Positions 26,160 to 47,671 of a DNA stretch of 64,000 bases are shown piece by piece. Every line of letters begins with the position of its first letter. The first letter of the stretch is position 1. The stretch spans positions 184,798 through 248,797 of the forward strand of contig CAZUHV010000002.1 in NCBI GenBank assembly GCA_964620965.1. The letters run 5' to 3'. The DNA is from an uncultured Pseudomonadales bacterium (lineage in GTDB: Bacteria; Patescibacteriota; Microgenomatia; UBA1400; PJMF01). A model generated the notes under the pieces. The model did no database searches. It had not been told where the DNA came from and saw nothing but the letters and a program-made list of their open reading frames with translations. Both the position numbers and the translations under genes were made by a program.

Positions 26160-26459
26160 ATGTCACAAAATAGAATCATTTCATTCAAAGAATCAATTGA
26201 ACTTGGAAAATATCAAATCGATTATTTAAGCCAATACAAAGAATGGGAAGAATTAGATCGCCACTTACAATACCAATATATTACTCAAGCCATAACTAAT
26301 AAGCGAAGACAATTACGTCTTGAATGGGCAAAAATGGCTAATCAACCAAATTTTAGCAAGAAACCTCAATTGCTCGCCGCACAAAAAAAGATAGAAAAAG
26401 CTTTGCGAGACTTAGATACAGATGAGGAAACACTCATGATTGAATACGCGGGTTGTTAA
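26160..26459 (+). CDS. hypothetical charged protein
   Basis: ATG at 26160 preceded by TGATATAAT-like sequence. No recognisable family. The track's upstream extension is implausible. Confidence 0.3.
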   Translation: MSQNRIISFKESIELGKYQIDYLSQYKEWEELDRHLQYQYITQAITNKRRQLRLEWAKMANQPNFSKKPQLLAAQKKIEKALRDLDTDEETLMIEYAGC

Positions 26460-26601
26460 ATAAACGCCGTTTCTTTTTAACCACTGCAATTAGACCTAAA
26501 AATAGCTCTATATTTTTCACTAGTTGAAGTTTGAAAAACATGCTACCATTATAATCTACAATCTGTAGTAGTTACTCGTATTAAGATTTTGAAAGGAAAC
26601 A

Positions 26602-27060
26602 ATGAACAATAAAAAAATGCTCCCAGTTGCGACAATTCTCTTTTGTGCAATTATTTTTTCTGCATGTATCCCAGCCAAAGAAACTCCAACCCAACAAACA
26701 CCAGAATCCACAGAAACAATGATACAAGAATCAGAATCTATGACAGATCCTGAATCAAGTTCTGAAACCACCGAACAAACAGTATCTGTTACAGCAAACT
26801 ATACAAGCCCAGCAGGAGAAGAAGAGGTTATCTTCAACATCTCTGTCGATGAAAATGGAGTAATAACAAAAGCAGAAACAGAAGGTCTTGCAACAAATCC
26901 TACCTCTATTATAAGACAAAAAAGCTTTGCTGAAAGCCTTCCTACTGCCATAGTTGGCAAAAATATTAGTGAACTTTCTAACATAGATAGAGTTGGCGGG
27001 TCTTCACTTACAACAAATGCATTTAATGCTTCACTAGAACAACTCAGAGCCCAATTGTAA
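26602..27060 (+). CDS. lipoprotein with Ser/Thr/Glu-rich linker (hypothetical)
   Basis: MNNKKMLPVATILFCAIIFSACI is a signal peptide plus lipobox. A low-complexity acidic linker precedes a small C-terminal domain. Confidence 0.55.
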   Translation: MNNKKMLPVATILFCAIIFSACIPAKETPTQQTPESTETMIQESESMTDPESSSETTEQTVSVTANYTSPAGEEEVIFNISVDENGVITKAETEGLATNPTSIIRQKSFAESLPTAIVGKNISELSNIDRVGGSSLTTNAFNASLEQLRAQL

Positions 27061-27064
27061 AAAT

Positions 27065-27937
27065 ATGTTTTCGTATACATTTCAAGCTTTTGGAACACAT
27101 TGGGCCATCCTCACGGATGGCTCAAAACTTCCTGATGCCCTAAAGAATGAAATATACGAAAAAACAATTGCATTCGAAAAACGCTTTTCTAGGTTTCAAA
27201 AGGGAAGTGAAGTATCGCAATTTAGAAACAGCCCTGAAGGGACATATGCTGTTTCTAAAGAACTATCAGAACTGCTTACTATCCACCAAGAATTAAAAAA
27301 CCTCACAAATGGGTTGTTTGATCCTGCAGTTGGAGAATTACTAGAAAAAGCTGGCTATGATGAAAATTACTCGTTTTCTCCAAAAAATCTAGAAAAATAC
27401 GCTTTGCCAGAATGGTCTATTTCTGGAAAAAAAATTAGAATTTCTGGCCCGATAGTTTTTGATTTTGGAGGAATTGGCAAAGGGTATTGGATAGATCAAA
27501 TCTCAAAAATCCTTCAGGAAAATAATCAAAAACATTACCTAATCGATGGAGGCAGAGACTTATTTGCAACTCAAAAAATTGATGGATCTGGTTGGAAAAT
27601 TGCAATAGAATGGCCTGGAAAGCAAGGAATTGCAGTTGGAACTGTTGTATTAAAAAATCAAGGACTTGCTGCGTCTGATACTATCTTACGGTCTTGGAAA
27701 AATTGGCACCACCTCATAGACCTCTCTACCAAAACTCCACAAACAAATAATATTGGGAGTACTGCGATTGCAAAATCAGCACTAACAGCGGATATGATGA
27801 CTTCTGTTTTATCATTTTGTTCAAAAGAGAAAGCAAAAGAGATTTCACAAAAATTTGATTCTGAATATATTGTTTTTAATCAAAACAATACTCTAATCAC
27901 AAGCACAGGGTGGAGTGGAGAGTTGTTTACCAAATAA
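27065..27937 (+). CDS. FAD:protein FMN transferase (ApbE family)
   Basis: FDFGGIGKGYWID motif and ApbE-like length. Confidence 0.75.
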   Translation: MFSYTFQAFGTHWAILTDGSKLPDALKNEIYEKTIAFEKRFSRFQKGSEVSQFRNSPEGTYAVSKELSELLTIHQELKNLTNGLFDPAVGELLEKAGYDENYSFSPKNLEKYALPEWSISGKKIRISGPIVFDFGGIGKGYWIDQISKILQENNQKHYLIDGGRDLFATQKIDGSGWKIAIEWPGKQGIAVGTVVLKNQGLAASDTILRSWKNWHHLIDLSTKTPQTNNIGSTAIAKSALTADMMTSVLSFCSKEKAKEISQKFDSEYIVFNQNNTLITSTGWSGELFTK

Positions 27938-28848: not shown

Positions 28849-29307
28849 TCATTCCTGTTCCAAAACAACAACAGCCCACTCGTCATCTTTTCCATCACCG
28901 GTTACAACATTTGCTGAATCTGGAGTATAGGTATACAGAGGTTGGCCATTATAGGTAACTTGTAAAATTCCATCAGCTCTTTGAATTACACCATATAGAC
29001 CACCAACATCAGACTCTAGCTCAACAGAAAGTGGTGGCCACGCTATCGCACAGTCACCATAGCAGTTACTCTCATCAATTTTGTCTTTTGAATAGGTGTA
29101 TAAAGGTAAACTTTCTTGTGTTGTTAGCACAATGCCAAAAGGTTCAATCACTGCTTCACTGACTGGAGCAAAACTGTCTCCAACTGCCTCTGAATCAAAC
29201 TTTGGAGCGGTTTTTTGTACTGACTGAGAAAACAAATCTCCACCAGAGCAACCAGAAAAAAGAAAGATACTACCTAAAAAAGAAACTAACAGTGCTTTTT
29301 TGTTCAT
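28849..29307 (-). CDS. secreted lipoprotein with conserved CYGDCAIAWPPL motif (COG4315 / Lipoprotein_15-like)
   Basis: Real start is MNKKALLVSFLGSIFLFSGC (lipobox). The Yx(FWY)xxD ... C..C..WPP repeats match the uncharacterised secreted-repeat family. The 307-aa track ORF upstream of this Met is Cys-rich junk antisense to the neighbouring gene. Confidence 0.6.
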   Translation of the reverse strand: MNKKALLVSFLGSIFLFSGCSGGDLFSQSVQKTAPKFDSEAVGDSFAPVSEAVIEPFGIVLTTQESLPLYTYSKDKIDESNCYGDCAIAWPPLSVELESDVGGLYGVIQRADGILQVTYNGQPLYTYTPDSANVVTGDGKDDEWAVVVLEQE

Positions 29308-29319
29308 ATATCTTTCATC

Positions 29320-30333
29320 ATGACACAGATAAAAGCTCCAAACAATGATAAAATACAACCTGTACTTATGATAAACAAAACCCTCTATAACACAGTCGCA
29401 CTTGGTGGAACATTTGATCACCTGCACGAAGGCCACAAACAATTTTTGCTTTTTGCCGCAGAAATTTCCCAAAACCTCATTATTGGTGTAACTGATCAAC
29501 AAATGACACTTACAAAACAGCATAGTGAGACAATTCAACCTACACATGTAAGAAAACAGGCTGTAGCTAATTTTTGTAACCAACATGGAATTCAAAACAG
29601 AGTTATTACAATTTTTGATCCATTTGGCCCAACAATAGAAGAAAATAGTAGAATTCAAGCAATTGTGTGTACAACAGATACTCTTGCAGGAGCAAATAAA
29701 ATCAATGAAATCAGAGATAAACTTCACATGCATAATCTGCCAATCCATGTTCATACACTTAAAAAAGACCAACTTGGAATCGATACAATCAGTGCAGAAA
29801 GAATTAGAAATGGGGAAATAGATAGAGCTGGAAGAGTCTATGCATCTGTTTTTAATACAACCCTTACGCTCTCAGAAAAAAGTCGTGCTTTTTTCTCTAA
29901 ACTTCATGGTACCATAATTTCAAAACCAACTCAGAGCGAAGTAAACTCAAAAGTAATAGTTGTTGGAGATTCCACTCTGGAAACATTTATTCAAAATAAT
30001 TGGAAATATGATCTGGGAATTTTTGATGGCAAACGACAAAGAAAAGAGTATAGTTCTGAAATTCTCAATCAGCTAGAAAACCCTAAAATCATTGGGAATA
30101 CTCCTGGCTCTATAGAACAACAAGCAGTGCAAATACTTGCAGATTGGAAATTAAACCAAAACTTCCAGCACATTTTTATTGAAGGTGAAGAAGACTTACT
30201 AGCTGTTGCAACAATACTCCTAATGCCACTTGGCACCCAAGTATATTATGGACAACCAAATGAAGGTATTGTTGAATGCGTCATTACAGAAGACATTAAA
30301 GAAGCTTTCTTTGACGTACTTAGTTCTAATTAA
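29320..30333 (+). CDS. cytidylyltransferase-fold protein: archaeal-type PPAT-like N-domain (GGTFDHLHEGH) fused to DUF359-like C-domain (possible GTP-dependent dephospho-CoA kinase)
   Basis: HxGH nucleotidyltransferase motif GGTFDHLHEGHKQFLLFAAE at the N-terminus. The C-terminal VIVVGDSTLETFIQNNWKYDLGIFDGKRQRKE resembles the VGD...DGKTKR signature of COG1909/DUF359. Confidence 0.5.
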   Translation: MTQIKAPNNDKIQPVLMINKTLYNTVALGGTFDHLHEGHKQFLLFAAEISQNLIIGVTDQQMTLTKQHSETIQPTHVRKQAVANFCNQHGIQNRVITIFDPFGPTIEENSRIQAIVCTTDTLAGANKINEIRDKLHMHNLPIHVHTLKKDQLGIDTISAERIRNGEIDRAGRVYASVFNTTLTLSEKSRAFFSKLHGTIISKPTQSEVNSKVIVVGDSTLETFIQNNWKYDLGIFDGKRQRKEYSSEILNQLENPKIIGNTPGSIEQQAVQILADWKLNQNFQHIFIEGEEDLLAVATILLMPLGTQVYYGQPNEGIVECVITEDIKEAFFDVLSSN

Positions 30334-33531: not shown

Positions 33532-35418
33532 TTATAACTCCATAAACTGATAGAGCTCACCATCCACAAACCCACGACTTCTATAGTATTCTCGAGTTCC
33601 AACCGCAGAAATAACTGCTAATTTTTTAAATTGTTTTTTTGTAGCAATTTCTTTTGCCAAACCAATCAGCTTTGTACCTAAACCTAAGTGCTGTGCCTTT
33701 GCATCTTTCTTTTCGCCAACATCCACAACATGACCATAGACGTGAATTTCTCTAATAATAGCAGAGTTTTCGAGCTCAGAAATAAAGTTGCTTACTTTTG
33801 GTAAACTCAAACGTAAAAAGGCCAAAATTTTTGTTCCATCAGTTTGTTCCAATTTTTTCCCAGTTTTTTTATTAAGCACTGTATCAGCATCCACAACATA
33901 CTGTAAAAATAATTCTGTACTTACTGGAGTAGAGTAGATTACTTTTTCAAGTCGAACATCTTTTGGATCAAAGCTGTAATTTTTAATTTCCCTTGCACGA
34001 ATATCTTGTGAATTTTCACCAGCTTTCAATAGTTTTTGTTCTGCAATTTGTCTAAAGTTTGTTAGCTTGTTGCCTTCAACAATATCTGTAGAGGGAATAT
34101 CTCTGATCACTCTAGTTAAACGACAATATTCTGGTGTGTTTAGTAAACAATACGAAAGCACATCCAAAAGTTCTTCATAAGAATATGGTTTCCATAATCC
34201 TTTTTTATAATATTGCATTAATTCAGCACTTCCAATTAAAGAACAAGGATAAATTTTTAATTCATCTGGTCTAAACCCTAAATCACTAAATAACTTAGCA
34301 TAATCTTTTTTATCATTTTCGACTGAAGATCCATACAAGTTTGCCATCCAATGTGCGTGAATTTTGAATCCTGCCTGTCGCAATAACTTCACTGCAGTTC
34401 TCGTAGCTGCAACTCCATGCCCGCGTTTATTTTTTGTGAGAACAGAATCATCTAAACTTTGAAATCCAATTTGTGTTTTTGTACAACCAAGCTTTCGAAT
34501 ACGAATAACTTCTTTTTCTGAAATATTGTCAGGGCGAGTCTCTACAACTAACCCAACATTTCTTACGTCTGCAGTTTCGTTTATTTTTTGTTGTGTAAAT
34601 AACTCCTCCCAAGTTGCAGATTGATATGCGTCAAAACCACCAATTTTTTCTGGAGCAACATATAACTGCGAAACTGTTTGATTATATGTCTTATCAATTT
34701 TTCCACCTTCAATTTTGAAACCATCCATAGTAGCTTTATTTTTTTCAGGGTTATTCGTTAAAACAGCTGCAGATTTTTCTCTTAATTTTTGTTCTAAATC
34801 TTCATAGTGTGCTTCAATGTTTTTCCTATCATCTTTTTTACCAAACTCATTGAGCGCTCTAAAACATTCTTTTATAAACCAAATTTGGTATGCTTCTGGA
34901 TAAAACGACCAAGTCCCTCCAAGTACAATTAACTCCGCTTTATTCACAGAGTGACCGATATTTTGCAAAGCTTGTAAGCGATTATATGTCTGCAAATAGG
35001 GGTCAAACCAATTTCTTTCTGCACGCTGAGCACCAGGTTCATCAGAAAGGTAACTTTTTGGCATTCTAATATCACTTGGACAAAAGATACATTTACCCGG
35101 ACAAGGAAATGGCTTTGTTAATACAGTAATTGGCGCAACACCAGATTGTGTTCTTGTTGGTTTTTTTCGAATTGCTTCTAAAATTTTGTCATTTAACGGA
35201 GCAATTTTATATTTTTTTGCCGTTTTGCTGTTTTCAGTAATACCACGATACCCGATAACAATCTCATCTTTAGAAAACTGACCTCCATCAGCTTTTAGAT
35301 GTTGTTTAGTTAATTGAGCCAATTTTCTTTCAGAAATTGTTTCTAGTTTTTCCAAATCTTTAATTAATGGAATCAATTGCTCAATATGCTTGGTATAATC
35401 AAACTTGTACTTTGTCAT
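33532..35418 (-). CDS. Elp3-like radical SAM + GNAT acetyltransferase (tRNA U34 carboxymethylation-type)
   Basis: Radical-SAM Cys cluster PFPCPGKCIFCPSD. C-terminal GNAT HVYGHVVDVGEKKDAKAQHLGLGTKLIGLAKEIATKKQFKKLAVISAVGTREYYRSRGF aligns with the Elp3 KAT domain. Confidence 0.75.
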   Translation of the reverse strand: MTKYKFDYTKHIEQLIPLIKDLEKLETISERKLAQLTKQHLKADGGQFSKDEIVIGYRGITENSKTAKKYKIAPLNDKILEAIRKKPTRTQSGVAPITVLTKPFPCPGKCIFCPSDIRMPKSYLSDEPGAQRAERNWFDPYLQTYNRLQALQNIGHSVNKAELIVLGGTWSFYPEAYQIWFIKECFRALNEFGKKDDRKNIEAHYEDLEQKLREKSAAVLTNNPEKNKATMDGFKIEGGKIDKTYNQTVSQLYVAPEKIGGFDAYQSATWEELFTQQKINETADVRNVGLVVETRPDNISEKEVIRIRKLGCTKTQIGFQSLDDSVLTKNKRGHGVAATRTAVKLLRQAGFKIHAHWMANLYGSSVENDKKDYAKLFSDLGFRPDELKIYPCSLIGSAELMQYYKKGLWKPYSYEELLDVLSYCLLNTPEYCRLTRVIRDIPSTDIVEGNKLTNFRQIAEQKLLKAGENSQDIRAREIKNYSFDPKDVRLEKVIYSTPVSTELFLQYVVDADTVLNKKTGKKLEQTDGTKILAFLRLSLPKVSNFISELENSAIIREIHVYGHVVDVGEKKDAKAQHLGLGTKLIGLAKEIATKKQFKKLAVISAVGTREYYRSRGFVDGELYQFMEL

Positions 35419-35469
35419 AAATTTGTTCTAGAACACTCTATTATACTCGACAGAGTCAAGAAAACCAAA

Positions 35470-36243
35470 ATGGATATAGAATTAATTAAGCGTTTGAATC
35501 AATTAAATACTGATTTTTATAACGCTACCGCAATTGATTTCGATGACAGTCGACACTACTTTTGGCAAGGATGGGATAAAATTCCACCATTTTTAGATGG
35601 CTTTGATGATATTCGTGTTGCAGACATTGGCTGTGGTAATGGTAGGTTTGGACAGTTTTTATTAGAAAAATGTCCACAAGTCAAACTGAGCTATACAGGC
35701 ATTGATGCTAATAAAAGATTACTTTCATTTGCTGAAGAAAATTTGCAAGGGAAAATTCCTGCACTTCATTTAGATCAAGTTGATATCATTCAAAACTTAT
35801 TAGATAATGAGGATTTTCTTAACAACCAAAAATTTCAACTCATTACTTGTTTTGGTGTATTCCACCATGTCCCAAGTTTTGAGTTGCGATTAAAACTACT
35901 TAAGTATCTGTTGAGCAAACTTTCTGCAAACGGTACACTCATTGTTTCAGTATGGATGTTTATGGAGTATGAACGATTTCGAAAAAAAATTATAAGAACT
36001 GATGAAAAAAATGATTCCCAAAAACTAGAAAAATACTCTCTTAACCTTATCAACCTAGAAAAAAATGACTATATTTTAGATTGGAAACGGGGAACTGAGG
36101 CACTACGATTTTGCCATTATATTGATGAACAAGAACAAAATTTACTCTTAGAAAAATCTGGTGCAAAACTTAAAAAATCTTTTAGAGCTGATGGCAAAGA
36201 AAACGATGTAAACCAGTATCTTATACTGTCACACCAAAGCTAG
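35470..36243 (+). CDS. class I SAM-dependent methyltransferase, Trm9/ALKBH8-like
   Basis: Motif I VADIGCGNGRFG. Motif II-like FQLITCFGVFHHVPSFELRLKLLKYL. Divergent from Elp3 with about 50 nt between the starts. Confidence 0.55.
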   Translation: MDIELIKRLNQLNTDFYNATAIDFDDSRHYFWQGWDKIPPFLDGFDDIRVADIGCGNGRFGQFLLEKCPQVKLSYTGIDANKRLLSFAEENLQGKIPALHLDQVDIIQNLLDNEDFLNNQKFQLITCFGVFHHVPSFELRLKLLKYLLSKLSANGTLIVSVWMFMEYERFRKKIIRTDEKNDSQKLEKYSLNLINLEKNDYILDWKRGTEALRFCHYIDEQEQNLLLEKSGAKLKKSFRADGKENDVNQYLILSHQS

Positions 36244-36278: not shown

Positions 36279-37862
36279 ATGAAAACATTTATTCCACTCC
36301 TTTTTATTATTTTTTCAATTATAGGAATCGCAGATTCTTCTTTTATTACCTATGAAAAATTTGCCGGTATTGTTCCAGATTGTGGAACAGGATTTGATTG
36401 TGGAGCAGTACTAAATAGCAAATGGTCTAGTATCGGCCCAATTCCATTATCTCTTTTAGGGCTTGTATATTACCTCACCGTTTTTGCTCTTGGAGTTTTT
36501 GTTGTGTTGGAGGTCGATTTACAAAAACCTTTACATTCTTTTTTTGACAAACTCAAAATCAAACAAGATTCTATTCTTCGTCAGCTAACAACTGCAGAAC
36601 TTTTACTACTTGTCACTACTTTTGGATTTGGTTTTTCAATTTACTTGGTAAGCCTCATGGCCTTCATTATTGGAGAATGGTGTAAATACTGTTTAATTAG
36701 CGCAGCAGCTTCATCACTATTATTCATTACTAGCTTAGTTTTTTTTGCAAAAGTGAAACAACAATCTCCGTTTGTTTTAAAATTTTTAAGTTTTAAATTT
36801 ATTCACTGGGGATATACAACAATAGTAAAACCATTATTTTTTCTTTTTGATGCAGAGACAGTTCACAACTCATGCACCAACTTTGGAAAACACTTAGGTA
36901 AACTTAAAATCACTCAAGCTCTTACAATTATCGCATTTTCGTTTAGACACTCAGCAAATACAAAAACATTCAATGGGATAACTTTTCCAAACCAAGTTGG
37001 ACTTGCTGCTGGGTTTGATTATAACGGCGAACTTACTAGTATATTACCAAGCTTAGGAATGGGATTTCACACTATTGGGACTGTCACATATCTCCCATAT
37101 GAAGGAAATCCAAAACCACGTTTAGGAAGATTTTTAGAATCAAAGGCTCTTTTGGTTAATAAGGGATTAAAATCATTAGGCGCAGTTGCAATTGCAAAAA
37201 AACTTACTGGTATTCGGTTTCAAATTCCAACAGGCATTTCTATTGCCAGCACAAATAAATACTTCGAAAATGAACAAGAACAAATCTTGGACATTCTTAA
37301 AACATTTACTATTTTCGAAAACTCAAAGGTACAACACGCATACTACGAACTCAATATCAGTTGTCCAAATACATTTGGCGGAGAACCGTTTACCACTCCA
37401 AAAAGATTAGAAAAACTACTTACTGCTCTAGAATCTCTACACGTTTCAAAACCAATTTATGTCAAAATGCCAATTGATCAAAGTAAAAAAGAAACGTTAG
37501 ATCTTTTAAATATTATTGACCAATACAAAATTGCTGGAGTGATCTTTGGTAATCTTACAAAAGATAAAACAAATCCAGATGTTACAGAGACTGAAAGAAA
37601 GCGTTGGAAAACTGTAAAAGGAAACTTAAGCGGCAAACCAACTTGGAAACGTTCAAATGAACTTATTGAACTCACAAAAAGAAACTTTAAAAATAGATTC
37701 ACAATTATTGGTACTGGTGGAATTTTTAATGGAGCAGACGCCATAACAAAAATAAATCTTGGAGCAGATTTAGTTCAAATAATCACAGGAATGATTTTTG
37801 AAGGTCCACAAACCATTGGTGAAATCAATTTAAAACTTGCTGAAAAAAATATAAAGCAGTAA
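36279..37862 (+). CDS. fusion protein: N-terminal VKOR (vitamin K epoxide reductase) membrane domain + C-terminal dihydroorotate dehydrogenase-like (PyrD-family) flavoenzyme domain
   Basis: VKOR features: loop Cys pair PDCGTGFDCG, GIPLSLLGLVYY, TM CXXC GEWCKYCL. DHOD features: FPNQVGLAAGFDYNGE, GFHTIGTVTYLPYEGNPKPRLGRF, NISCPNT (Cys base), IGTGGIFNGADAITKINLGADLVQIITGMIFEGP. Confidence 0.7.
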   Translation: MKTFIPLLFIIFSIIGIADSSFITYEKFAGIVPDCGTGFDCGAVLNSKWSSIGPIPLSLLGLVYYLTVFALGVFVVLEVDLQKPLHSFFDKLKIKQDSILRQLTTAELLLLVTTFGFGFSIYLVSLMAFIIGEWCKYCLISAAASSLLFITSLVFFAKVKQQSPFVLKFLSFKFIHWGYTTIVKPLFFLFDAETVHNSCTNFGKHLGKLKITQALTIIAFSFRHSANTKTFNGITFPNQVGLAAGFDYNGELTSILPSLGMGFHTIGTVTYLPYEGNPKPRLGRFLESKALLVNKGLKSLGAVAIAKKLTGIRFQIPTGISIASTNKYFENEQEQILDILKTFTIFENSKVQHAYYELNISCPNTFGGEPFTTPKRLEKLLTALESLHVSKPIYVKMPIDQSKKETLDLLNIIDQYKIAGVIFGNLTKDKTNPDVTETERKRWKTVKGNLSGKPTWKRSNELIELTKRNFKNRFTIIGTGGIFNGADAITKINLGADLVQIITGMIFEGPQTIGEINLKLAEKNIKQ

Positions 37863-37880: not shown

Positions 37881-38429
37881 TTACCTTATAAACTGTTCTA
37901 TAAAAGATCCAAGAGTATAAGCAGCAATTGCAGCAACTGAACCAACTAACAGCATCTCAACTCCGTTTTTGAACCAGCTACCTTTAATAACATATGTTCT
38001 TAAACTTCCAACAAAAAACATTGCTGTTAATGTAGAAACTACCGACATAATAAATTGATGGTTTTCTGCAATCTCAAAACCAAAAAGCATTAAAACATAC
38101 GGGAGCAGTGGCAATCCACCTGCGACAACAAACGCAAGAAAGGTGACTAAACTTGTTTTCCACAAACAACATGAATCAGAATCTTTGCCTTCGCTTTTTT
38201 CTAAAGTATGAACAGATCTTTCACCAAGATAATCACCAAGTGCCATACTAATTCCATCTGCAACCATATTTGCAATTCCAAGAACAATAATCACTTCTGT
38301 AGCAAAGCCAGCGCCTACAACACCTGCAACAACAGCAAATGTTGTAACAATTCCGTCACTTGCTCCTAATACAGCTGGTTTAATATATTTTTTTGCGACT
38401 TTCATGCCGACCTTCTTTCTTATATTCAT
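37881..38429 (-). CDS. VIT1/CCC1-family Fe/Mn transporter (short form)
   Basis: AVLGASDGIVTTFAVVAGVVGAG signature plus C-terminal TM helices. Confidence 0.75.
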   Translation of the reverse strand: MNIRKKVGMKVAKKYIKPAVLGASDGIVTTFAVVAGVVGAGFATEVIIVLGIANMVADGISMALGDYLGERSVHTLEKSEGKDSDSCCLWKTSLVTFLAFVVAGGLPLLPYVLMLFGFEIAENHQFIMSVVSTLTAMFFVGSLRTYVIKGSWFKNGVEMLLVGSVAAIAAYTLGSFIEQFIR

Positions 38430-38503: not shown

Positions 38504-39577
38504 ATGGCAAATCAAACAAAAAAAGGTAAGAGGATATTTTGGATAGATGCTCTTCGAGCACTCTCTATTTTTATGGTTGTTGCATTACATAGTAGTGCGA
38601 AAGTAATTTATTCTTGGGATTTAGTAATAACAGGTGAGCTTTCTGCGTTCTCATGGAACTTTGCAAATCTTATTAACTCCTTTTCAAGAGCTAGTGTCCC
38701 ATTATTCGTTTTATTGAGCGGGGCAGTACTGTTAGAAAAAAAAGAAACTACAGAACAGTTTCTCAGCAAAAGGCTTCCAAGAATTATGTTACCCTGGTTT
38801 TTTTGGGGAACCATTCAATTGTTTTATAACTTTGATTTTTCACTCAAAACTATTTTAAGCGGGAACTTAGCAAATAAAGTTGCTGAAACTTACTTTGGTG
38901 GATTTTGGTTTATGCCAATGATCTTAGGTTTATATTTAGTAACACCTTTGATTAAGCCATTTATTCAAAATGCAAAACCAAAAGAATTTTTCTATTTTTT
39001 TAGTTTATGGTTTGTTTTTGCTTGTTTAATTCCTACGTTAAACACAGTCTTTGGAATTTCAGTTTCTTATCAACTTCCAGTTTTTATACAATATCTTGGA
39101 TACTTTGTTGGAGGCTATTTTTTAACAAACAAAATAAAATTAAAAGAAACTGTAATAAACCAAACAAAATTACTCTATGTTGTTTCAACACTGATTATTG
39201 CACTAGGAACCTTTGCACTTACAAAACTTGATTCTGATTTTAATAGCTCACTATATGAGTATCTTAATCTTCCAGTGTTTATTTCTGCCATCACCGGTTT
39301 TATTACTTTTAAATCACTTTTTGAAAATAAAAAGGTATTAAAAACCATAAAAAAAGTGAAAGATAAAATTCAAAAAATAAGCTCACTTAGCTTTGGAGTT
39401 TTTCTTTCACATGCACTCGTTCTTGATATTTTTACAAAAGGGACAATAGGCCTCACAATTCATGGAATGATAACAACTCCATTTTTTGCGATACCGTTAA
39501 CAACAATTCTTGTTTTTGCAACTTCTTGTTTAATAACTTTGCTTCTGAGTAAATACCTTAAACAATTCGTTTCTTAA
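38504..39577 (+). CDS. acyltransferase family 3 (OatA-like membrane acyltransferase)
   Basis: RIFWIDALRALSIFMVVALHS N-terminal motif and about 10 TM helices. Confidence 0.8.
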   Translation: MANQTKKGKRIFWIDALRALSIFMVVALHSSAKVIYSWDLVITGELSAFSWNFANLINSFSRASVPLFVLLSGAVLLEKKETTEQFLSKRLPRIMLPWFFWGTIQLFYNFDFSLKTILSGNLANKVAETYFGGFWFMPMILGLYLVTPLIKPFIQNAKPKEFFYFFSLWFVFACLIPTLNTVFGISVSYQLPVFIQYLGYFVGGYFLTNKIKLKETVINQTKLLYVVSTLIIALGTFALTKLDSDFNSSLYEYLNLPVFISAITGFITFKSLFENKKVLKTIKKVKDKIQKISSLSFGVFLSHALVLDIFTKGTIGLTIHGMITTPFFAIPLTTILVFATSCLITLLLSKYLKQFVS

Positions 39578-40166
39578 AACTAAAAACGTATAGTAACCAA
39601 ACAAATGTTGTTATAAATATTCCTCTTTGCCAAACTCCAGCAAATTCTGAAAAGTTGAACATCAATAAAGAGAGAACTGTCGCCAAAACTGCGATTGATA
39701 CCGCTAATAATTTGTCAGCATGTTTTTTTGTAAAAAATGCCATTGAAATGGCAAAAAAAGTAAATGAAAATCCTGTAACAGAAGCAAAAAGTGAATGTAA
39801 CTCATCATGGCGTACATTAAAACTTAAACTTGAGTCGATTGGAGCATGACTAAAAATTGCCGTCAAAACCAAAGAACCACCAAAAAGCAATAAAAGAATT
39901 AAAAAATAATAGTGACTTTTAAACTTTTTAAAACCTTCATAGATTGTAGAAAAACCAAGTGCACAAAAAATAAAATTCATAATCCAAGCATTTGGAGTGT
40001 TTTGTGCAGCAAGTTGGCTTGTAGTATTTTTTACAATTGAATATCCAGGTAAACTATAAAATGGCAATAAAAAAATTACCAAAAGCATAACTACATATGA
40101 ATAAAAAAGCGGTGATGATTTTAAGTATTTCAGCATTACTTCATATAATACCAAAAAGCCTAACAA
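39558..40166 (-). CDS. hypothetical polytopic membrane protein
   Basis: Six predicted TM helices, no family recognised. Confidence 0.4.
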   Translation of the reverse strand: MLGFLVLYEVMLKYLKSSPLFYSYVVMLLVIFLLPFYSLPGYSIVKNTTSQLAAQNTPNAWIMNFIFCALGFSTIYEGFKKFKSHYYFLILLLLFGGSLVLTAIFSHAPIDSSLSFNVRHDELHSLFASVTGFSFTFFAISMAFFTKKHADKLLAVSIAVLATVLSLLMFNFSEFAGVWQRGIFITTFVWLLYVFSFKKRIV

Positions 40167-43584: not shown

Positions 43585-46500
43585 ATGTCAGCTAAAACTG
43601 AAGTTAAAAAACTAGATAAACAAAAAGACACCTATCAACAAATCGAGGAAACTGTTGCCGATCTAAAAAAAATAAAACTTGAACTTAGAGTATTGAGGGC
43701 AAAAAAAGAAAAAACAACACAAGACATCGATACGATAAAAAGAATAGAACAGGTTATCTCTAGACTTGAAGATCGCGTAGAACAAAGAAGAGATTCCCTC
43801 TCAGTGAGTCAAAAAAACAAAATAATCAAAGAACAATATAGGAATATTTTTGAGACAGACATTCCTGTAAGAAGAATCATTGGCAAAGATATTGTAGCAA
43901 TCTTCATGCCTGAAACGTTTTTGAGAGAGCAAATTAGCCAACTACAAAACTTAGAAGAAAAAATTACAAGTAGCACTGATACTCAAAACCCTCAAAACAG
44001 TGAAGATATAAATGAATACTTTATCCTTCTTAAGAAAGTAAATCAATTTTTAGTTGTTCTTGATAATCTTAAAGTTAATATTCCCGAACCCCACAAAAAA
44101 ACAATTACTAGAATTCAAAGAGGTATGATCAAACTTCCTGTTTATGGAGCAGAGGCCGTTTCAAAACTTTTCATTAGATCAAAAAAAGAAGTTAATAAAC
44201 GGATAAAAAATGTTGAGCATTCACTAGAAAATTATATTACATTTCAAGGCCTAGAAAGCGTCAGAAAAACTTTGCTTTCTGTGCCATCATTCTTTGATGG
44301 AAAAAATAAAGAAATAGAAGAACAAATACGTACTGCGAAAGAAGATGAACTTCCAGGATTATACTCAAAAATTTTAGCTGAACCCTTTGAAATAATTAGA
44401 GAAGCTGGCTTAGATCCTAACCTTCCAGAGAACCACCCAAAAATTATTTACAAACTTTTAACAACAAATAATCGCCATAGCTTTGCTCAAAATGCAGCAT
44501 TCTTATTTGAGATAGATAATATTCAATCTATTATTCCTAAACTAGACCAAGCTATACATAAACACGAAATTATTGCTTCTCTACTTAACATGGAATTTTC
44601 ATACTGGAGAAGATTCTCTCTACTAAACTTAGAAACTATTAAATCAACTTCTCAGAAAATGACTTCTGAAGTTCTCAGGGCAATTACTTTTGATGAAACT
44701 CAAATTGTACCAAGTCTTATTGATCTAGAAAAAATTACTAAGTCTCTTTCTCCTAGACCAGAAACAGATATAAAAGAAGAAATAGATCTACAACATATCC
44801 AAGATGCTGAGCTAAAAAAACTAATACAAGAAGATTTACAACTATTTGAGAAATTCCCAACAAATGATAGAGAAGTGCTTATTTTTGTGCAACAGTACAA
44901 AGAAATAGTTAGTAGATATAAAAACCTCAATCCAGAAAAAGTAAAAAAACTTATTCTAGAATACAAGAAAAAAATTGATGCAAGAATGCAGATATTATTA
45001 CTTAACCAAATTGTTGAATCTGCAATTGGTGAGACGATGATCTACGACTTTCATGAATGGCAAGTAGCAGACAATAATTTAGGAAGAATACTTAACAATA
45101 ACAATATTTGTTCAGTTTTTACAAGTTATAATAGGGGACTTATTAACTCCCTCAGCAAAGAAAAAGAAAACGCTACTGTTCCTAGAAGTGGCTTTGCAGT
45201 TCTAAAAAAATCAGAAAACCCAGAAAGAAAATTTGACGTTTCATTAAGAGTCTATAATAATACTTCCCGATATAATGCCTTTCATTCAACAATGCTTGAA
45301 TGTTGGATCGATTCTGAAGGGGACCAAAAAAGAACAAAACAACTATGGGAAAAAAGAATACAAAAAATCGAAAAAACCCTTCCAAGTTTTTATCCCGAAG
45401 AACTTCTTTTACATATAATAACAGTTTCAAGAAAAACCCAATCTAAGCTAGATATAGACTTTTTTGACGGTATCACAAAAACTTTAATCGAAAAATACTC
45501 TGCCTCACAAGGAGGTGAGATAAATACTAACCACTTAAGTGATCTTGTGAGCTATGTAACAAGTCATATGGATCTTTCTCAAAAATCAATACTAGATTGG
45601 TGGAAAAATAGTTACTGTACACAATACCAAGCTCCAAGTTTTGAGGAAGCACTCTCTAGAGTTCATACACTTCCTTGTATTCTGCTTCCATCAGAAATAT
45701 CAAGCTCTCAAAATGTTAATGAACTTCAACAAGAACTTACACAAATAACTAATGAACTAAGATCTCAATTTGTTACAGCATCAATGCTCATAACTTATGG
45801 GGTTAACCAAAACGGAGACTTTGCACTATCTTCAAGTTGTGACCACTCGAATTGGGATGGAAAACAAAGTGGAGATATGGTTGAAAAAGTTATTACTAAA
45901 GTTATAGACTCAACAAAACAGACTCAACTTAATCAATCAGAAATTCTTCAAGATACAACTACCCACGTTGACACTACTGTAATTACTTCAAGTGAAAAAG
46001 AGAAAGCTGTTTTAGAACAATCTGGGAATTACCAAATACAATCGTATGTAGAAGCAGAAGGGTTTGTGAGGATCTGTGATGATATTGGTCAAATGGTTTC
46101 TAGACTAGTTTCAGAAGGTAAAATAAACCCAGATACAAAAATTAAAAATCCAGCTGTTATCATGCAATTAATGCTTGTAAATGTGTATAGAGACATTCTT
46201 TCAAAAATGAAGGATGAAGATGGAACAGAACACTTTACTCAAACCCAAAATATAGGAATGTTACTAGGAAACCCTGATATAACAAAAGACCTAGACTTAG
46301 CCCCAATTCAAGGTGGTTTTGATTTACAACTCTTTAATAATCTTGATCTTAAACAAAAAGAAGAATATCTTGTTTCACTTGCTCTTTTATTTGATATTTC
46401 ATTAAAACATACAAATATGGAGCTTATCAAAAAAGTTGCAGAATCTATTCCATTTAAAGGAATTCAAAACTTTCTTAATGATCTTTCAAGAAGGAAAATA

Positions 46501-46824
46501 CTACTTGGTGGATTAAAGGATTTTGCTGGAGAATTTATGATTTCAAACTTCGGCCTTCCAAGAGTCAAAGGTGGAAAAATAAAATTAGAAAAAAAGCATG
46601 GCTTCCAAATTATTAGAAACTCTGGACCTGCCCAAACTGACTTCCAAAAAGGTTCTATGACTATAGTAGGAGCCTTAGAAATGGCTAATACATTTTATTT
46701 ATCAATTTGTTATAAAAATAAGAGAAATGCTGCGGCAATACATATTGCAAAAGAATTCAAAAAGTACATTGAATCACTAGATGTGAACTATTACATGGAC
46801 TGGAAACAAAAAAACACCAACTAA
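43585..46824 (+). CDS. large orphan protein (1079 aa) with N-terminal coiled coil, function unknown
   Basis: Uninterrupted 3.2 kb ORF with its own intrinsic terminator. No signal peptide, P-loop or other motif recognised. Confidence 0.6.
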   Translation: MSAKTEVKKLDKQKDTYQQIEETVADLKKIKLELRVLRAKKEKTTQDIDTIKRIEQVISRLEDRVEQRRDSLSVSQKNKIIKEQYRNIFETDIPVRRIIGKDIVAIFMPETFLREQISQLQNLEEKITSSTDTQNPQNSEDINEYFILLKKVNQFLVVLDNLKVNIPEPHKKTITRIQRGMIKLPVYGAEAVSKLFIRSKKEVNKRIKNVEHSLENYITFQGLESVRKTLLSVPSFFDGKNKEIEEQIRTAKEDELPGLYSKILAEPFEIIREAGLDPNLPENHPKIIYKLLTTNNRHSFAQNAAFLFEIDNIQSIIPKLDQAIHKHEIIASLLNMEFSYWRRFSLLNLETIKSTSQKMTSEVLRAITFDETQIVPSLIDLEKITKSLSPRPETDIKEEIDLQHIQDAELKKLIQEDLQLFEKFPTNDREVLIFVQQYKEIVSRYKNLNPEKVKKLILEYKKKIDARMQILLLNQIVESAIGETMIYDFHEWQVADNNLGRILNNNNICSVFTSYNRGLINSLSKEKENATVPRSGFAVLKKSENPERKFDVSLRVYNNTSRYNAFHSTMLECWIDSEGDQKRTKQLWEKRIQKIEKTLPSFYPEELLLHIITVSRKTQSKLDIDFFDGITKTLIEKYSASQGGEINTNHLSDLVSYVTSHMDLSQKSILDWWKNSYCTQYQAPSFEEALSRVHTLPCILLPSEISSSQNVNELQQELTQITNELRSQFVTASMLITYGVNQNGDFALSSSCDHSNWDGKQSGDMVEKVITKVIDSTKQTQLNQSEILQDTTTHVDTTVITSSEKEKAVLEQSGNYQIQSYVEAEGFVRICDDIGQMVSRLVSEGKINPDTKIKNPAVIMQLMLVNVYRDILSKMKDEDGTEHFTQTQNIGMLLGNPDITKDLDLAPIQGGFDLQLFNNLDLKQKEEYLVSLALLFDISLKHTNMELIKKVAESIPFKGIQNFLNDLSRRKILLGGLKDFAGEFMISNFGLPRVKGGKIKLEKKHGFQIIRNSGPAQTDFQKGSMTIVGALEMANTFYLSICYKNKRNAAAIHIAKEFKKYIESLDVNYYMDWKQKNTN

Positions 46825-46844: not shown

Positions 46845-46918
46845 AGCGGGAAACGGGATTCGAACCCGCGACCTCTTCCTTGGCAAGGAAGCGCTCTAGC
46901 CAGCTGAGCTATTCCCGC
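46845..46918 (-). tRNA. tRNA-Gly (anticodon GCC)
   Basis: The reverse complement folds with acceptor GCGGGAA/TTCCCGC and anticodon loop TTGCCAA. Confidence 0.85.
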
Positions 46919-46999
46919 AATTTCTATTTAAAGAACAAGAAGTATTTTACACTTGATGTACAAAAAAGTGAATACCTTAAATTGGTGTACAATAAAGCT

Positions 47000-47671
47000 A
47001 TGAAATCAAGTCTATTCAGACTACTTGTCTTACCACTTACAATAGTGGGGGTGCTCTATGTTTCGTTATTTTTAGGTAGCCAAAGAAAACCAACTAATAT
47101 CGCAAACCAAGTAACTGCTGAAAATCAAATAGAGCTCAAAACTTCAGATAATACAGAAAACAATGAAACTACTAAAGAAAAAAAAGAACCTTCAAACCCA
47201 ACTCCAGAAAATATAAAAGTTTTAGGAGTAGAAGATATACAAAAAAATACTGATTCTCAAAACGCTTCCATAGAGTTTGAAACTCAAATCTTATATAACC
47301 TTATAAACTCATACAGAGAAGAAAATAATTTAAACAAGCTTTTTGCTAATAAGCTTTTGGAAGACAGTGCTCGTCGAAAACTCAAAGATATGATTGATAA
47401 AAATTACTTCAGACATGCCGACACTGCAAATAATGAATCATGGTACTTATTTAATGCCGCTGGATATCACTATGAACTTGCCGGAGAAAATCTCTCTACC
47501 GGATACAATACCCCTTGGCAAGTGTTCTCTGCATGGCAAAGAAGTGAAAAACACAACTCTCAATTACTGAAACCAGAATACTTAGATATGGGGCTTGCAG
47601 TAAATTGTGAAACATATGAAGTTAGAGATAAACCTGCTTGCATAGTAGTATTACATTTAGGTTTACGTTAA
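47000..47671 (+). CDS. CAP/SCP/PR1-like domain secreted protein (YkwD-like)
   Basis: Internal Met MKSSLFRLLVLPLTIVGVLYVSLF (signal/anchor). CAP motifs NSYREENNL ... HYELAGENLS ... WQVFSAWQRSEKHNSQLL. The track ORF's first 120 nt overlap tRNA-Gly and were trimmed. Confidence 0.7.
   Translation: MKSSLFRLLVLPLTIVGVLYVSLFLGSQRKPTNIANQVTAENQIELKTSDNTENNETTKEKKEPSNPTPENIKVLGVEDIQKNTDSQNASIEFETQILYNLINSYREENNLNKLFANKLLEDSARRKLKDMIDKNYFRHADTANNESWYLFNAAGYHYELAGENLSTGYNTPWQVFSAWQRSEKHNSQLLKPEYLDMGLAVNCETYEVRDKPACIVVLHLGLR

What the first reader, a model, noticed from the sequence alone, without database searches (positions are those of the whole stretch)
36279..37862. VKOR domain fused to a DHOD-like flavoenzyme in one polypeptide
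The N-terminal 160 aa have the full VKOR signature: loop Cys pair, TM CXXC (CKYC), and GIPxxxLGxxYY. The C-terminal 350 aa are a PyrD-family TIM-barrel flavoenzyme (GLAAGFD, NISCPNT with Cys as catalytic base, GTGGI...GAD). Bacterial VKORs are normally stand-alone or fused to thioredoxin-like domains and pass electrons from periplasmic thiols to quinone. Small-genome bacteria of this kind generally lack quinones. A covalently attached flavin dehydrogenase/reductase could be an alternative electron sink, for example fumarate or orotate, for disulfide bond formation. Alternatively VKOR could provide the membrane/quinone site for a class-2-like DHOD. I cannot confirm whether this architecture has been described.
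Basis: partly seen in the sequence, partly recalled or inferred. Interest (0 to 1): 0.7.

Follow-up and report, generated by a model that had tools for sequence, protein, structure and literature searches.

The report
VKOR fused to DHOD-like flavoenzyme
One gene of an ultra-small (CPR) bacterium joins an outward-facing enzyme that makes protein disulfide bonds to an inward-facing, quinone-linked flavoenzyme of the dihydroorotate dehydrogenase type, a conserved but undescribed pairing that may show how cells without a respiratory chain dispose of the electrons from disulfide bond formation.

Summary
Window 36279-37862 (+) is one uninterrupted 527-aa ORF. Residues 1-160 are a four-helix VKOR with all four catalytic cysteines. 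Residues 178-527 are a class-2-type dihydroorotate dehydrogenase (DHOD)-like FMN barrel that keeps its own quinone-tunnel helices. It is not a misassembly: the 120 best database relatives, down to 52% identity and from independent assemblies, all carry both domains.

New points:
- The DHOD-like part belongs to a divergent clade shared by CPR bacteria and DPANN archaea. It has Cys for the class-2 Ser base, has lost Asn111 and Thr247, and has moved the active-site Lys to another loop.
- None of 88 loci of this clade has a pyrimidine gene nearby.
- Unfused members sit beside separate VKOR genes in three loci, one of them with a DsbA-like gene.
- Topology puts the cysteines outside and the flavin inside, so a membrane quinone must link them.

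My best reading (about 0.4) is that VKOR reduces a scavenged quinone and the flavoenzyme re-oxidises it onto a cytoplasmic acceptor. The main rival (about 0.33) is a genuine DHOD anchored to VKOR, with both domains reducing quinone. I found no publication describing the architecture. Direction of electron flow and whole-genome pyr and quinone gene content remain untested.

The parts
36279..37862 (+). Whole VKOR-DHOD-like gene (527 aa plus stop); an alternative GTG start lies at 36261
36279..36758 (+). VKOR domain, aa 1-160: TM1 4-28, loop helix 41-45, TM2 57-76, TM3 105-131, TM4 136-160
   Evidence: Pfam PF07884, E 6e-25; helices from the AF2 model; alignment to Synechococcus VKOR
36381..36419 (+). 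Outward-facing loop with shuttle cysteines C35 and C41 and conserved S47
   Evidence: Invariant in 26 fused proteins. Loop net charge -1.0, against +2.6 and +3.2 for the cytoplasmic segments
36681..36692 (+). Active-site CXXC (C135-K-Y-C138) at the outer end of TM4
   Evidence: Invariant; aligns with the CMYC motif of Synechococcus VKOR
36759..36809 (+). Linker: a four-residue turn, then the start of a positively charged interfacial helix (aa 165-187) that runs directly into the DHOD alpha-1 helix
   Evidence: AF2 secondary structure, pLDDT above 90; charge and hydropathy
36810..36938 (+). Class-2 DHOD N-terminal helical (quinone-tunnel) domain, aa 178-220, including invariant H196 (E. coli H19)
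   Evidence: NCBIfam class-2 models cover from aa 179; MSA to E. coli PyrD; invariance
36963..37844 (+). FMN TIM barrel, aa 229-522. FMN and tunnel residues conserved: R284 (E. coli R102), K396 (E. coli K217), N425 (E. coli N246), G478-G481
   Evidence: Pfam PF01180, E 1e-47
37020..37022 (+). Y248 at the position of the active-site Lys (E. coli K66)
37158..37163 (+). N294-K295 in the 'VNKGLKS' loop. K295 (E. coli position 113) is the relocated Lys. V293 replaces the orotate-binding Asn111
   Evidence: Perfect covariation: position 66 not Lys goes with position 113 Lys in 43/43; position 66 Lys goes with position 113 Lys in 0/87
37353..37373 (+). Catalytic loop N359-I-S-C362-P-N364-T, with Cys where class-2 DHODs have the Ser base
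   Evidence: Alignment to 1f76 'NISSPNT'; invariant
37551..37556 (+). N425-L426: Asn246 equivalent kept, Thr247 equivalent replaced by Leu

Best explanation
The gene encodes a bifunctional membrane redox protein.

Shown:
- A four-helix VKOR has its two cysteine pairs facing outward.
- A four-residue turn and an interfacial helix join it to the quinone-tunnel helices of a cytoplasmic, FMN-binding, class-2-type DHOD-like barrel.
- Both active sites are conserved.
- The two sites lie on opposite faces of the membrane, so only a lipid-soluble quinone can connect them.
- The two activities are also linked genetically in unfused form in other CPR/DPANN contigs.

Inferred (the mechanism I commit to):
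1. A DsbA/MdbA-like partner oxidises exported proteins and hands electrons to C35/C41, then to C135/C138, then to a bound quinone. The quinone is probably scavenged and of menaquinone type.
2. The quinol moves to the cytoplasmic leaflet and enters the DHOD tunnel at H196/R284, where it reduces FMN.
3. FMN passes the electron pair to a carboxylate-bearing C=C acceptor in the remodelled pyrimidine pocket. Fumarate is the most plausible acceptor on energetic grounds and orotate less so. C362 acts as proton donor, as in class-1A DHOD.

This would be a one-protein equivalent of the E. coli anaerobic chain DsbB, menaquinone, fumarate reductase. It would suit fermentative cells with no respiratory chain.
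For: Architecture and conservation:
- Both domains are above Pfam thresholds.
- 120 of 120 listed homologues are fused.
- C35, C41, S47, C135, C138, H196, R284, the NISCPN loop, K396 and N425 are invariant.

Topology and geometry:
- The positive-inside pattern places the cysteines outside and the barrel inside.
- The AF2 model has pLDDT 94.3 and pTM 0.90, with TM4 running straight into DHOD alpha-1.
- P0131 has an inserted pair of TM helices, an even number, which keeps the barrel cytoplasmic.

Genetic linkage beyond the fusion:
- L040 (Nanoarchaeota): DHOD-like gene and VKOR gene with overlapping stop and start codons.
- L095: the same gene order.
- L105: a dsbA-like (CPAC motif) plus vkor operon, divergent from the DHOD-like gene.
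- Fused proteins are scattered among unfused ones in the tree.
- VKOR is fused or adjacent in 14 of 88 clade-3/4 loci and in 0 of 71 other DHOD loci.

Signs that the flavoenzyme is not a plain PyrD:
- Cys base, Asn111 replaced by Val, Thr247 replaced by Leu.
- The query falls just under the NCBIfam equivalog cut-offs.
- 0 of 88 clade-3/4 loci have a pyr neighbour, against 6 of 28 canonical class-2 loci and about 17 of 31 class-1 loci.
- The 64-kb window has no pyr genes.

Host biology from the literature:
- CPR lack respiratory chains, terminal reductases and complete nucleotide pathways.
- They lack quinone synthesis.
- They carry VKOR next to MdbA-like oxidoreductases.
Against: - No activity was measured, so the direction of flow is an inference.
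- By my estimate, reduction of a DHOD flavin by menaquinol is energetically uphill, and I know of no class-2 DHOD working in reverse.
- Most unfused clade-3/4 genes (74 of 77 loci) have no VKOR in the flank, so the flavoenzyme has a role independent of VKOR.
- Unfused relatives pass the NCBIfam 'quinone-dependent DHOD' cut-offs.
- Clade-3 proteins occur in Peregrinibacteria. One lineage of that phylum is reported to have essentially complete nucleotide synthesis. This suggests the clade can be a true PyrD.
- The strict Lys relocation argues for preserved rather than new chemistry.
- A PAP2-DHOD-like fusion shows the same flavoenzyme attached to an unrelated membrane protein, as expected for simple anchoring.
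- Whole-genome pyr, fumarate-metabolism and quinone gene content of the host was not testable.
- The linkage counts are biased, because the genome scan used the fused protein as query.
Confidence: 0.4

Rival explanations
1. Two parallel quinone reductases on one chain. The C-terminal part is a genuine dihydroorotate:quinone oxidoreductase (PyrD) for pyrimidine synthesis. VKOR works as usual. The fusion only anchors and co-localises the DHOD at the membrane and quinone, as the N-terminal TM helix does in eukaryotic DHODH. Quinol is re-oxidised elsewhere, by oxygen, an unknown oxidase, or exchange with a host.
For: - Each domain would then work in its known direction.
- The closest solved and curated relatives are quinone-dependent DHODs.
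- FMN and quinone-tunnel residues and one active-site Lys are retained.
- Unfused relatives pass the NCBIfam DHOD cut-offs.
- The same flavoenzyme clade is fused to PAP2 in Peregrinibacteria/Gracilibacteria, and others carry TM-like N-terminal extensions.
- A lineage of Peregrinibacteria is reported to make nucleotides.
Against: - Anchoring does not explain why separate VKOR and DHOD-like genes are adjacent or translationally coupled.
- Anchoring does not explain why fusion seems to have arisen or been lost several times.
- It leaves two electron inputs and no output in organisms reported to lack respiratory chains and terminal reductases.
- Asn111 and Thr247 equivalents are lost.
- There is no pyr gene in the window or in 88 clade-3/4 loci.
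- Most CPR are reported to lack complete nucleotide synthesis.
Confidence: 0.33
2. Reverse relay. The DHOD part oxidises dihydroorotate or a related substrate and reduces quinone. VKOR then runs backwards and uses the quinol to keep extracytoplasmic thiols reduced, or to reduce external disulfides or polysulfides. This would be a DsbD/CcdA-like reducing pathway that also serves as an electron sink for DHO oxidation.
For: - It is a sequential coupling, so it fits the fusion and operon linkage.
- The DHOD would work in its usual direction.
- By my estimate, the overall drop from DHO to a DsbA-type disulfide is favourable.
Against: - I know of no VKOR or DsbB that works as a quinol:disulfide reductase.
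- The L105 partner is DsbA-like (CPAC motif). CPR VKORs neighbour MdbA-like oxidases, which points to oxidative folding.
- The model needs an unidentified external oxidant.
- The doubts about pyr genes apply here as well.
Confidence: 0.1
3. Artefact: two neighbouring genes joined by a frameshift, a misassembly or a gene-calling error.
For: None found. A few short 'unfused' relatives, such as P0121 on a 2-kb contig, may be truncated fragments.
Against: - The reading frame is continuous.
- 120 of 120 homologues from independent sources are fused and of similar length.
- The junction is modelled with pLDDT above 90.
- Fused genes occur on contigs up to 1.37 Mb.
Confidence: 0.01

Closest known systems
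Bacterial VKOR (Synechococcus VKOR-Trx, PDB 3kp9/4nv5; M. tuberculosis and Actinomyces VKOR, which re-oxidise DsbA/MdbA)
   Same: Four-helix core, loop cysteine pair with C-x5-C spacing, conserved loop Ser, CXXC at the outer end of TM4, N-in topology. CPR VKORs neighbour MdbA-like proteins.
   Different: Known fusion partners are periplasmic thioredoxin/DsbA-like domains reached through a fifth TM helix. Here the partner is a cytoplasmic FMN dehydrogenase attached directly after TM4.
Class-2 (quinone-dependent) dihydroorotate dehydrogenase (E. coli PyrD 1f76, M. tuberculosis 8ofw, human DHODH)
   Same: TIM barrel plus N-terminal two-helix quinone tunnel. H19, R102, N172, N177, K217 and N246 equivalents are kept. 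Target-normalised TM-score 0.85-0.91.
   Different: Cys instead of the Ser175 base. Lys66 replaced by Tyr, with the Lys moved to position 113. Asn111 replaced by Val and Thr247 by Leu. Bit scores just below the NCBIfam equivalog cut-offs. No pyr-gene context. N-terminal polytopic VKOR.
Class-1A DHOD (L. lactis PyrDA, Trypanosoma cruzi DHOD), a DHO:fumarate oxidoreductase
   Same: Cys as acid/base at the catalytic loop. 'GL' rather than 'GF' in the substrate loop. These enzymes are the precedent for one pyrimidine pocket that also reduces fumarate (established knowledge; alignment).
   Different: Class 1A is soluble, has no N-terminal quinone domain, and matches only weakly here (E about 1e-6; 53 bits against a cut-off of 301).
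E. coli anaerobic disulfide pathway: DsbA, DsbB, menaquinone, fumarate reductase
   Same: The proposed electron route is the same: exported thiols, then a membrane thiol oxidase, then quinone, then a cytoplasmic-face flavoenzyme, then fumarate.
   Different: In E. coli these are separate proteins and the reductase is the four-subunit FrdABCD. Here a single chain carries an unrelated flavoenzyme, and the activity is unproven.
PAP2-DHOD-like fusion of Peregrinibacteria/Gracilibacteria (P0144, P0286-P0293)
   Same: A related CPR-type DHOD-like barrel (clade 3) with an N-terminal polytopic membrane domain.
   Different: The partner is a lipid phosphatase-family domain, not a redox enzyme. It is confined to a narrow lineage (80-86% identity among members). 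It retains Lys66 (clade 3).

Membership tests
VKOR family (PF07884) | Profile match above the curated threshold | tested here: met
   88.3 bits against a cut-off of 27.5, aa 8-152
VKOR family (PF07884) | Four-TM bundle with the loop cysteine pair and conserved Ser/Thr between TM1 and TM2 | tested here: met
   AF2 helices. C35, C41 and S47 are invariant and align with the cysteines and a serine of the 'VLSSRW' motif of Synechococcus VKOR
VKOR family (PF07884) | CXXC at the extracytoplasmic end of TM4 | tested here: met
   C135-K-Y-C138 is invariant, starts TM4, and follows an uncharged outer loop
VKOR family (PF07884) | Thiol:quinone oxidoreductase activity with a Trx-fold partner | not testable with these tools
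   No Trx/DsbA-like gene was detected in the window. A DsbA-like gene sits beside the VKOR in L105
Class-2 (quinone) DHOD, PyrD | DHO_dh barrel with FMN-binding residues | tested here: met
   PF01180 at 163 bits. K396, N359, N364, N425, G478-G481 and S451-G452 are conserved
Class-2 (quinone) DHOD, PyrD | N-terminal helical quinone-tunnel domain with the conserved His and Arg | tested here: met
   Models cover from aa 179. H196 and R284 are invariant. Helices 165-187 and 192-208
Class-2 (quinone) DHOD, PyrD | Serine catalytic base (E. coli Ser175) | tested here: not met
   C362 in 'NISCPNT', invariant in the family
Class-2 (quinone) DHOD, PyrD | Full set of orotate-binding side chains (Lys66, Asn111, Asn172, Asn177, Asn246, Thr247) | tested here: not met
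   Y248, V293 and L426 replace Lys66, Asn111 and Thr247. Lys is relocated to position 113. Asn172, Asn177 and Asn246 equivalents are kept
Class-2 (quinone) DHOD, PyrD | Reaches the curated equivalog score (NCBIfam) | tested here: not met
   NF003652: 259.4 against 267. TIGR01036: 195.6 against 200. Unfused relatives P0130, P0136 and P0202 do pass
Class-2 (quinone) DHOD, PyrD | Part of a de novo pyrimidine pathway in the same genome | tested here: inconclusive
   No pyr gene in the 64-kb window or in 88 clade-3/4 loci. Whole genomes could not be read
Class-1A DHOD (fumarate) | Cys base | tested here: met
   C362
Class-1A DHOD (fumarate) | Soluble enzyme without an N-terminal extension; best similarity to class-1 models | tested here: not met
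   Class-1 models score 53 bits or less against cut-offs of 269-301. The N-terminal extension is present

The most novel reading that the evidence does not exclude
CPR bacteria, and DPANN archaea through adjacent genes, possess a respiration-independent disulfide-bond-forming machine. VKOR reduces a privately held, scavenged quinone. A class-2-derived flavoenzyme, running as a quinol:fumarate (or quinol:orotate) reductase, re-oxidises that quinone on the cytoplasmic face. The divergent CPR/DPANN 'DHOD' clade would then be a redox-balancing enzyme and not a pyrimidine-synthesis enzyme.
Probability: 0.3. Interest if true: 0.85.

Novelty: new variant of a known kind. Interest (0 to 1): 0.62.

Why it matters
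Oxidative protein folding needs a terminal electron acceptor. In well-studied bacteria that acceptor is the respiratory chain. CPR bacteria depend on disulfide-rich surface proteins and pili, yet they lack respiratory chains and quinone synthesis, so where VKOR's electrons go is an open question.

A conserved fusion, together with operon linkage, between VKOR and a quinone-tunnel flavoenzyme names a concrete candidate for that missing step. The question can be tested with one recombinant protein.

The finding also flags a large CPR/DPANN clade that is annotated as 'quinone-dependent DHOD'. Its active site is remodelled and its genomic context is not pyrimidine-related, so automatic metabolic reconstructions of these organisms may be misreading it.

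If instead the mundane reading holds, the result still documents a new membrane-anchoring solution for class-2 DHOD.

Tried and rejected
- **Frameshift or misassembly.** Rejected.
- **Helix 165-187 as a fifth TM helix placing the barrel outside.** Rejected. The helix carries three Lys, is homologous to E. coli alpha-1, and lies in a positively charged segment. An FMN barrel outside the cell is also implausible.
- **Direct CXXC-to-FMN transfer without quinone.** Rejected on topology.
- **Membership of class-1A DHOD.** Rejected.
- **An apparent pyrB-pyrC-nudix-pyrD operon in L011/L014.** Rejected. The 'PyrB' is OTCase-like (250 against 133 bits). The 430-aa genes are a recombinase and a prenyltransferase/cyclase-like protein.
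- **Conserved neighbours as functional clues.** Only local synteny was found. Methyltransferase upstream and VIT1 downstream are shared by the window, L001, L003 and L008. NUDIX and DUF998 occur in L011 and L014. Nothing is shared across the family.
- **Organism names for representative proteins.** The listing of cluster members returned almost none.
- **Homologues of the L040 VKOR.** The search found only the protein itself.
- **The afdb50 fold library.** Unavailable.
- **Model coordinates.** Not exposed, so inter-site distances and groove geometry could not be measured.
- **Whole-genome checks for pyr, men/ubi, frd and cyd genes in fusion-bearing MAGs.** Not possible, because only 10-kb flanks are retrievable.
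- **Literature.** Searches for VKOR plus DHOD, and for CPR plus dihydroorotate, found no description of the fusion.
Full report
**1. What is in the sequence**

Window 36261/36279-37862 (+) is a single ORF of 533 or 527 aa. Most homologues begin at the 'MK' that corresponds to the ATG at 36279.

Pfam places VKOR (PF07884) on aa 8-152 (E 6e-25) and DHO_dh (PF01180) on aa 229-522 (E 1e-47). Both are far above their gathering scores.

NCBIfam's best matches are all 'quinone-dependent dihydroorotate dehydrogenase' models. They cover aa 179-524, which includes the N-terminal helical extension that defines class 2. Class-1 models score 53 bits or less.

Against solved structures the best sequence hits are E. 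coli, A. baumannii, M. tuberculosis and human class-2 DHODs, at E 1e-34 to 1e-30. Class 1A and 1B appear only at about 1e-6.

**2. The fusion is real and widespread**

The 120 best hits among 5.8 billion proteins (52-98% identity, 501-559 aa) all carry both Pfam domains. They come from independent NCBI, JGI, ENA and Logan assemblies, some on contigs longer than 1 Mb. The names that are given point to Patescibacteria and Pacebacteria.

In the 50%-identity representative library, fused representatives include P0039, P0122-P0124, P0128, P0129, P0131, P0135 and P0166.

A scan of one genome per species found fused genes in five species representatives, one of them a Woesebacteria genome (L008-L011 and L014). 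Several record titles, such as 'uncultured Pseudomonadales', look like mislabelled CPR bins.

In an alignment of 26 fused proteins down to 35% identity, C35, C41, S47, C135 and C138 are invariant. The four cysteines align with cysteines of the solved Synechococcus VKOR, and S47 with a serine of its 'VLSSRW' motif. Both halves are therefore under selection, and the VKOR is not a degenerate anchor.

**3. Anatomy and topology**

AlphaFold2 on this alignment gives mean pLDDT 94.3 and pTM 0.90. The helices are:
- TM1, aa 4-28
- a short loop helix, aa 41-45
- TM2, aa 57-76
- TM3, aa 105-131
- TM4, aa 136-160
- a four-residue turn
- a helix at aa 165-187, whose second half is the counterpart of E. 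coli DHOD alpha-1
- alpha-2 at aa 192-208, followed by the barrel

Net charge (K+R minus D+E), averaged over the family, is:
- -1.0 for the TM1-TM2 loop that carries the cysteine pair
- +2.6 for the TM2-TM3 loop
- +3.2 for the segment after TM4

The cysteines therefore face outward and the flavin barrel is cytoplasmic. P0131 has an inserted pair of TM helices, an even number, which preserves this arrangement.

The model matches class-2 DHOD structures over about 350 columns, with target TM-score 0.85-0.91.

The CXXC is at the outer end of TM4 and the FMN lies beyond the inner face. A full 25-residue transmembrane helix (aa 136-160) separates them. No direct electron transfer is plausible, and a mobile quinone is the only reasonable link.

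The DHOD part keeps its own tunnel residues. H196 (E. coli H19) and R284 (E. coli R102) are invariant.

**4. The flavoenzyme belongs to a divergent clade**

I aligned about 130 relatives to E. coli PyrD. A neighbour-joining tree, without bootstrap support, shows nested groups:
- Canonical class 2: K66, N111-R-M-G-F, S175, N246-T247.
- Class 2 with Cys at position 175.
- 'Clade 3': K66, Val or Ile at 111, usually Tyr or Ala at 113, C175, N246-L247.
- 'Clade 4', which includes the query: Y66, V111, K113, C175, L247.

Three conclusions follow.
- The Cys base is not peculiar to the fusion.
- The Asn111 and Thr247 equivalents are lost in clades 3 and 4. From established DHOD structures, these side chains hold the pyrimidine ring.
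- The active-site Lys has moved and has not been lost. Where position 66 is not Lys, position 113 is Lys in 43 of 43 sequences. Where position 66 is Lys, position 113 is Lys in 0 of 87.

The Lys relocation argues that the site is still catalytic and still handles a carboxylate substrate. The other changes argue that ring recognition has been altered.

The query falls just under two NCBIfam equivalog cut-offs (259.4 against 267; 195.6 against 200). Unfused relatives pass them.

Clades 3 and 4 are found in many CPR lineages: Levy-, Davies-, Curtiss-, Woyke-, Uhr-, Andersen- and Magasanikbacteria, Paceibacterota, Saccharibacteria and Peregrinibacteria. They are also found in DPANN archaea: Pace-, Woese- and Nanoarchaeota.

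**5. Genomic context**

*The window.* The window contains no pyrimidine, quinone-synthesis, cytochrome or oxidase, or Trx/DsbA genes. I surveyed nearly all ORFs of 110 aa or more with Pfam and ran BLAST with E. coli CarA/B and PyrB/C/E/F.

*Immediate neighbours.* These are a class-I methyltransferase upstream, an Elp3-type enzyme, and a VIT1 transporter downstream. The order is conserved only among close relatives. It is absent in more distant fused loci.

*Pyrimidine neighbours across loci.* The table shows how many loci of each DHOD type have a pyr gene in the flank.

| DHOD type | Loci with a pyr neighbour |
|---|---|
| Clade 3/4 | 0 of 88 |
| Canonical class 2 | 6 of 28 |
| Class 1 | about 17 of 31 |

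The one apparent PyrB, in L014, is OTCase-like. The contrast is confounded by taxonomy. It also says nothing about genes elsewhere in the genome.

*VKOR neighbours.* A VKOR profile built from the fused family finds separate VKOR genes beside unfused DHOD-like genes in three loci:
- L040 (Nanoarchaeota): the DHOD-like and VKOR genes have overlapping stop and start codons. The VKOR (P0285) is annotated as such and carries PF07884.
- L095: the same gene order.
- L105: a DsbA-like gene (CPAC motif) and a VKOR form an operon that is divergent from the DHOD-like gene.

A further fused gene turned up in L126. In a Peregrinibacteria contig the two genes lie 6.6 kb apart.

In total, VKOR is fused or adjacent in 14 of 88 clade-3/4 loci and in 0 of 71 other DHOD loci. 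The count of fused loci is inflated because the genome scan used the fused query.

Fused proteins are interspersed with unfused ones in the tree. This suggests more than one fusion or fission event, although some short 'unfused' entries may be fragments.

**6. How it most likely works**

*Shown.* An outward-facing VKOR and an inward-facing quinone-tunnel flavoenzyme are joined in a fixed geometry. Both active sites are conserved, and the pair recurs in three different gene arrangements.

*From the literature.*
- CPR bacteria lack respiratory chains and terminal reductases, and most lack complete nucleotide synthesis (PMC7143001).
- They lack quinone synthesis (PMC8407418).
- They carry VKOR next to MdbA-like thiol oxidases thought to fold pilins (PMC6744442).

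*Inference.* Two enzymes that both reduce quinone give no obvious reason for repeated fusion and operon linkage. A sequential arrangement does give one. I therefore favour, at about 0.4, a relay in four steps:
1. Exported thiols pass electrons to a DsbA-like protein.
2. The DsbA-like protein passes them to VKOR and then to quinone.
3. Quinol enters the DHOD tunnel and reduces FMN.
4. FMN reduces a cytoplasmic C=C acceptor, with C362 as proton donor.

Fumarate is the likelier acceptor, by analogy with class-1A DHOD and with the E. coli chain DsbB, menaquinone, fumarate reductase. By my estimate from standard potentials, orotate would be strongly uphill from menaquinol.

Weak points of the relay:
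- The quinol-to-flavin step is uphill.
- There is no precedent for it.
- Most unfused clade members have no VKOR nearby.

**7. Rivals**

*Parallel or anchoring model (about 0.33).* This model treats the barrel as a real PyrD that uses VKOR only as a membrane anchor.
- In favour: the PAP2-DHOD-like fusion recurs in Peregrinibacteria/Gracilibacteria. Unfused relatives pass the DHOD equivalog thresholds. Clade 3 is present in Peregrinibacteria, and one lineage of that phylum has 'essentially complete' nucleotide synthesis (PMC4736985).
- Against: it explains neither the adjacency of separate genes nor where the electrons go.

*Reverse relay (about 0.1).* DHO would drive reduction of external disulfides. 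This has no precedent and conflicts with the DsbA/MdbA-type partners.

*Artefact.* Excluded.

**8. Comparison with what is known, and novelty**

Each domain is a recognisable member or near-member of a known family.
- The VKOR part meets every sequence and structure criterion I could test.
- The flavoenzyme works like a class-2 DHOD in fold, FMN site and quinone tunnel. It fails three defining tests: the Ser base, the full orotate-binding set, and the equivalog score.

I therefore call the flavoenzyme 'class-2-type DHOD-like' and do not call it PyrD.

The accessible literature describes VKOR only as stand-alone or fused to DsbA/Trx-like domains. A dedicated VKOR phylogeny paper does not mention fusions. 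No paper combining VKOR or CPR with dihydroorotate dehydrogenase describes this architecture.

Databases already hold the proteins, under names such as 'dihydroorotate dehydrogenase (quinone)', 'dihydroorotate dehydrogenase/uncharacterized membrane protein' or 'hypothetical protein'. The architecture is thus recorded but uncharacterised. I class it as a new variant of known kinds.

**9. Verdict**

The functional link and the 'electron sink' idea are plausible and now rest on independent gene-linkage evidence. The sink must act through quinone, not in place of it, and the direction of flow is unproven.

Interest is 0.62. The finding is a conserved, lineage-wide and experimentally tractable candidate for a missing step in oxidative protein folding in organisms without respiration. 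An ordinary anchoring explanation is not yet excluded.

Noticed in passing
window 26061-27937 (+): An ApbE-family flavin transferase (27065-27937) is preceded by two small ORFs without Pfam hits. The second is weakly similar to SP_0198-family lipoproteins. This may be an extracytosolic flavinylation module, a system reported as rare in CPR.
   Followed up: partly
window 33532-36243 and 37881-38429; L001, L003, L008: An Elp3-type radical-SAM/GNAT tRNA-modification enzyme (443 bits, cut-off 350) is divergent from a class-I methyltransferase that lies directly upstream of the fusion gene. A VIT1 iron-transporter gene is convergent just downstream. The order methyltransferase, fusion gene, VIT1 is kept in relatives at 53-75% identity but not in more distant ones.
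   Followed up: partly
P0144, P0286-P0293; L176 10001-11653: A 550-aa PAP2 (lipid phosphatase family) plus DHOD-like fusion recurs in Peregrinibacteria/Gracilibacteria. It is a second case of this CPR flavoenzyme being joined to a polytopic membrane protein.
   Followed up: partly
L016, L027, L029, L034, L037, L038, L040, L041 and many CPR loci: The divergent DHOD-like clade (Cys base, Asn111 and Thr247 lost) is shared by CPR bacteria and DPANN archaea at 40-60% identity. This hints at inter-domain transfer or common selection in ultra-small symbionts.
   Followed up: partly
window 19221-20870 (-): EF-P lies next to a 349-aa truncated class-II aminoacyl-tRNA-synthetase-like gene, possibly an EpmA/PoxA-type EF-P modifying enzyme.
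   Followed up: no
window 1-64000: GC skew is negative in 26 of the 32 2-kb bins across the window (cumulative -2.1), so no strand switch is visible. A one-directional skew was reported for a complete Microgenomates genome.
   Followed up: no
window 39558-40166 (-); L011 4496-5065; L014 10528-11109: A DUF998 membrane protein lies within about 2 kb of the fusion gene in the window and in L011, whose fusion protein is only about 41% identical. An ORF at the equivalent position in L014 had no Pfam hit.
   Followed up: no
window 13539-15820 (-): Two tandem MgtE-family magnesium transporter paralogues, 417 and 335 aa.
   Followed up: no
window 43585-46824 (+) and 46880-47671 (+): A 1079-aa ORF with no Pfam match is followed by a CAP (cysteine-rich secretory protein) domain protein. 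These may be surface proteins that need disulfide bonds.
   Followed up: no
window 28849-30333: ORFs 28849-29772 (-) and 29320-30333 (+) overlap by about 450 nt. The minus-strand ORF is probably over-extended: its Lipoprotein_15 repeat is at the C-terminal end, and the orthologue in L001 is only 151 aa.
   Followed up: no
L008, L009, L011, L019, L031, L042, L044: Several genome records titled 'uncultured Pseudomonadales' or 'Gammaproteobacteria' carry CPR-type genes. They look like mislabelled CPR bins.
   Followed up: no
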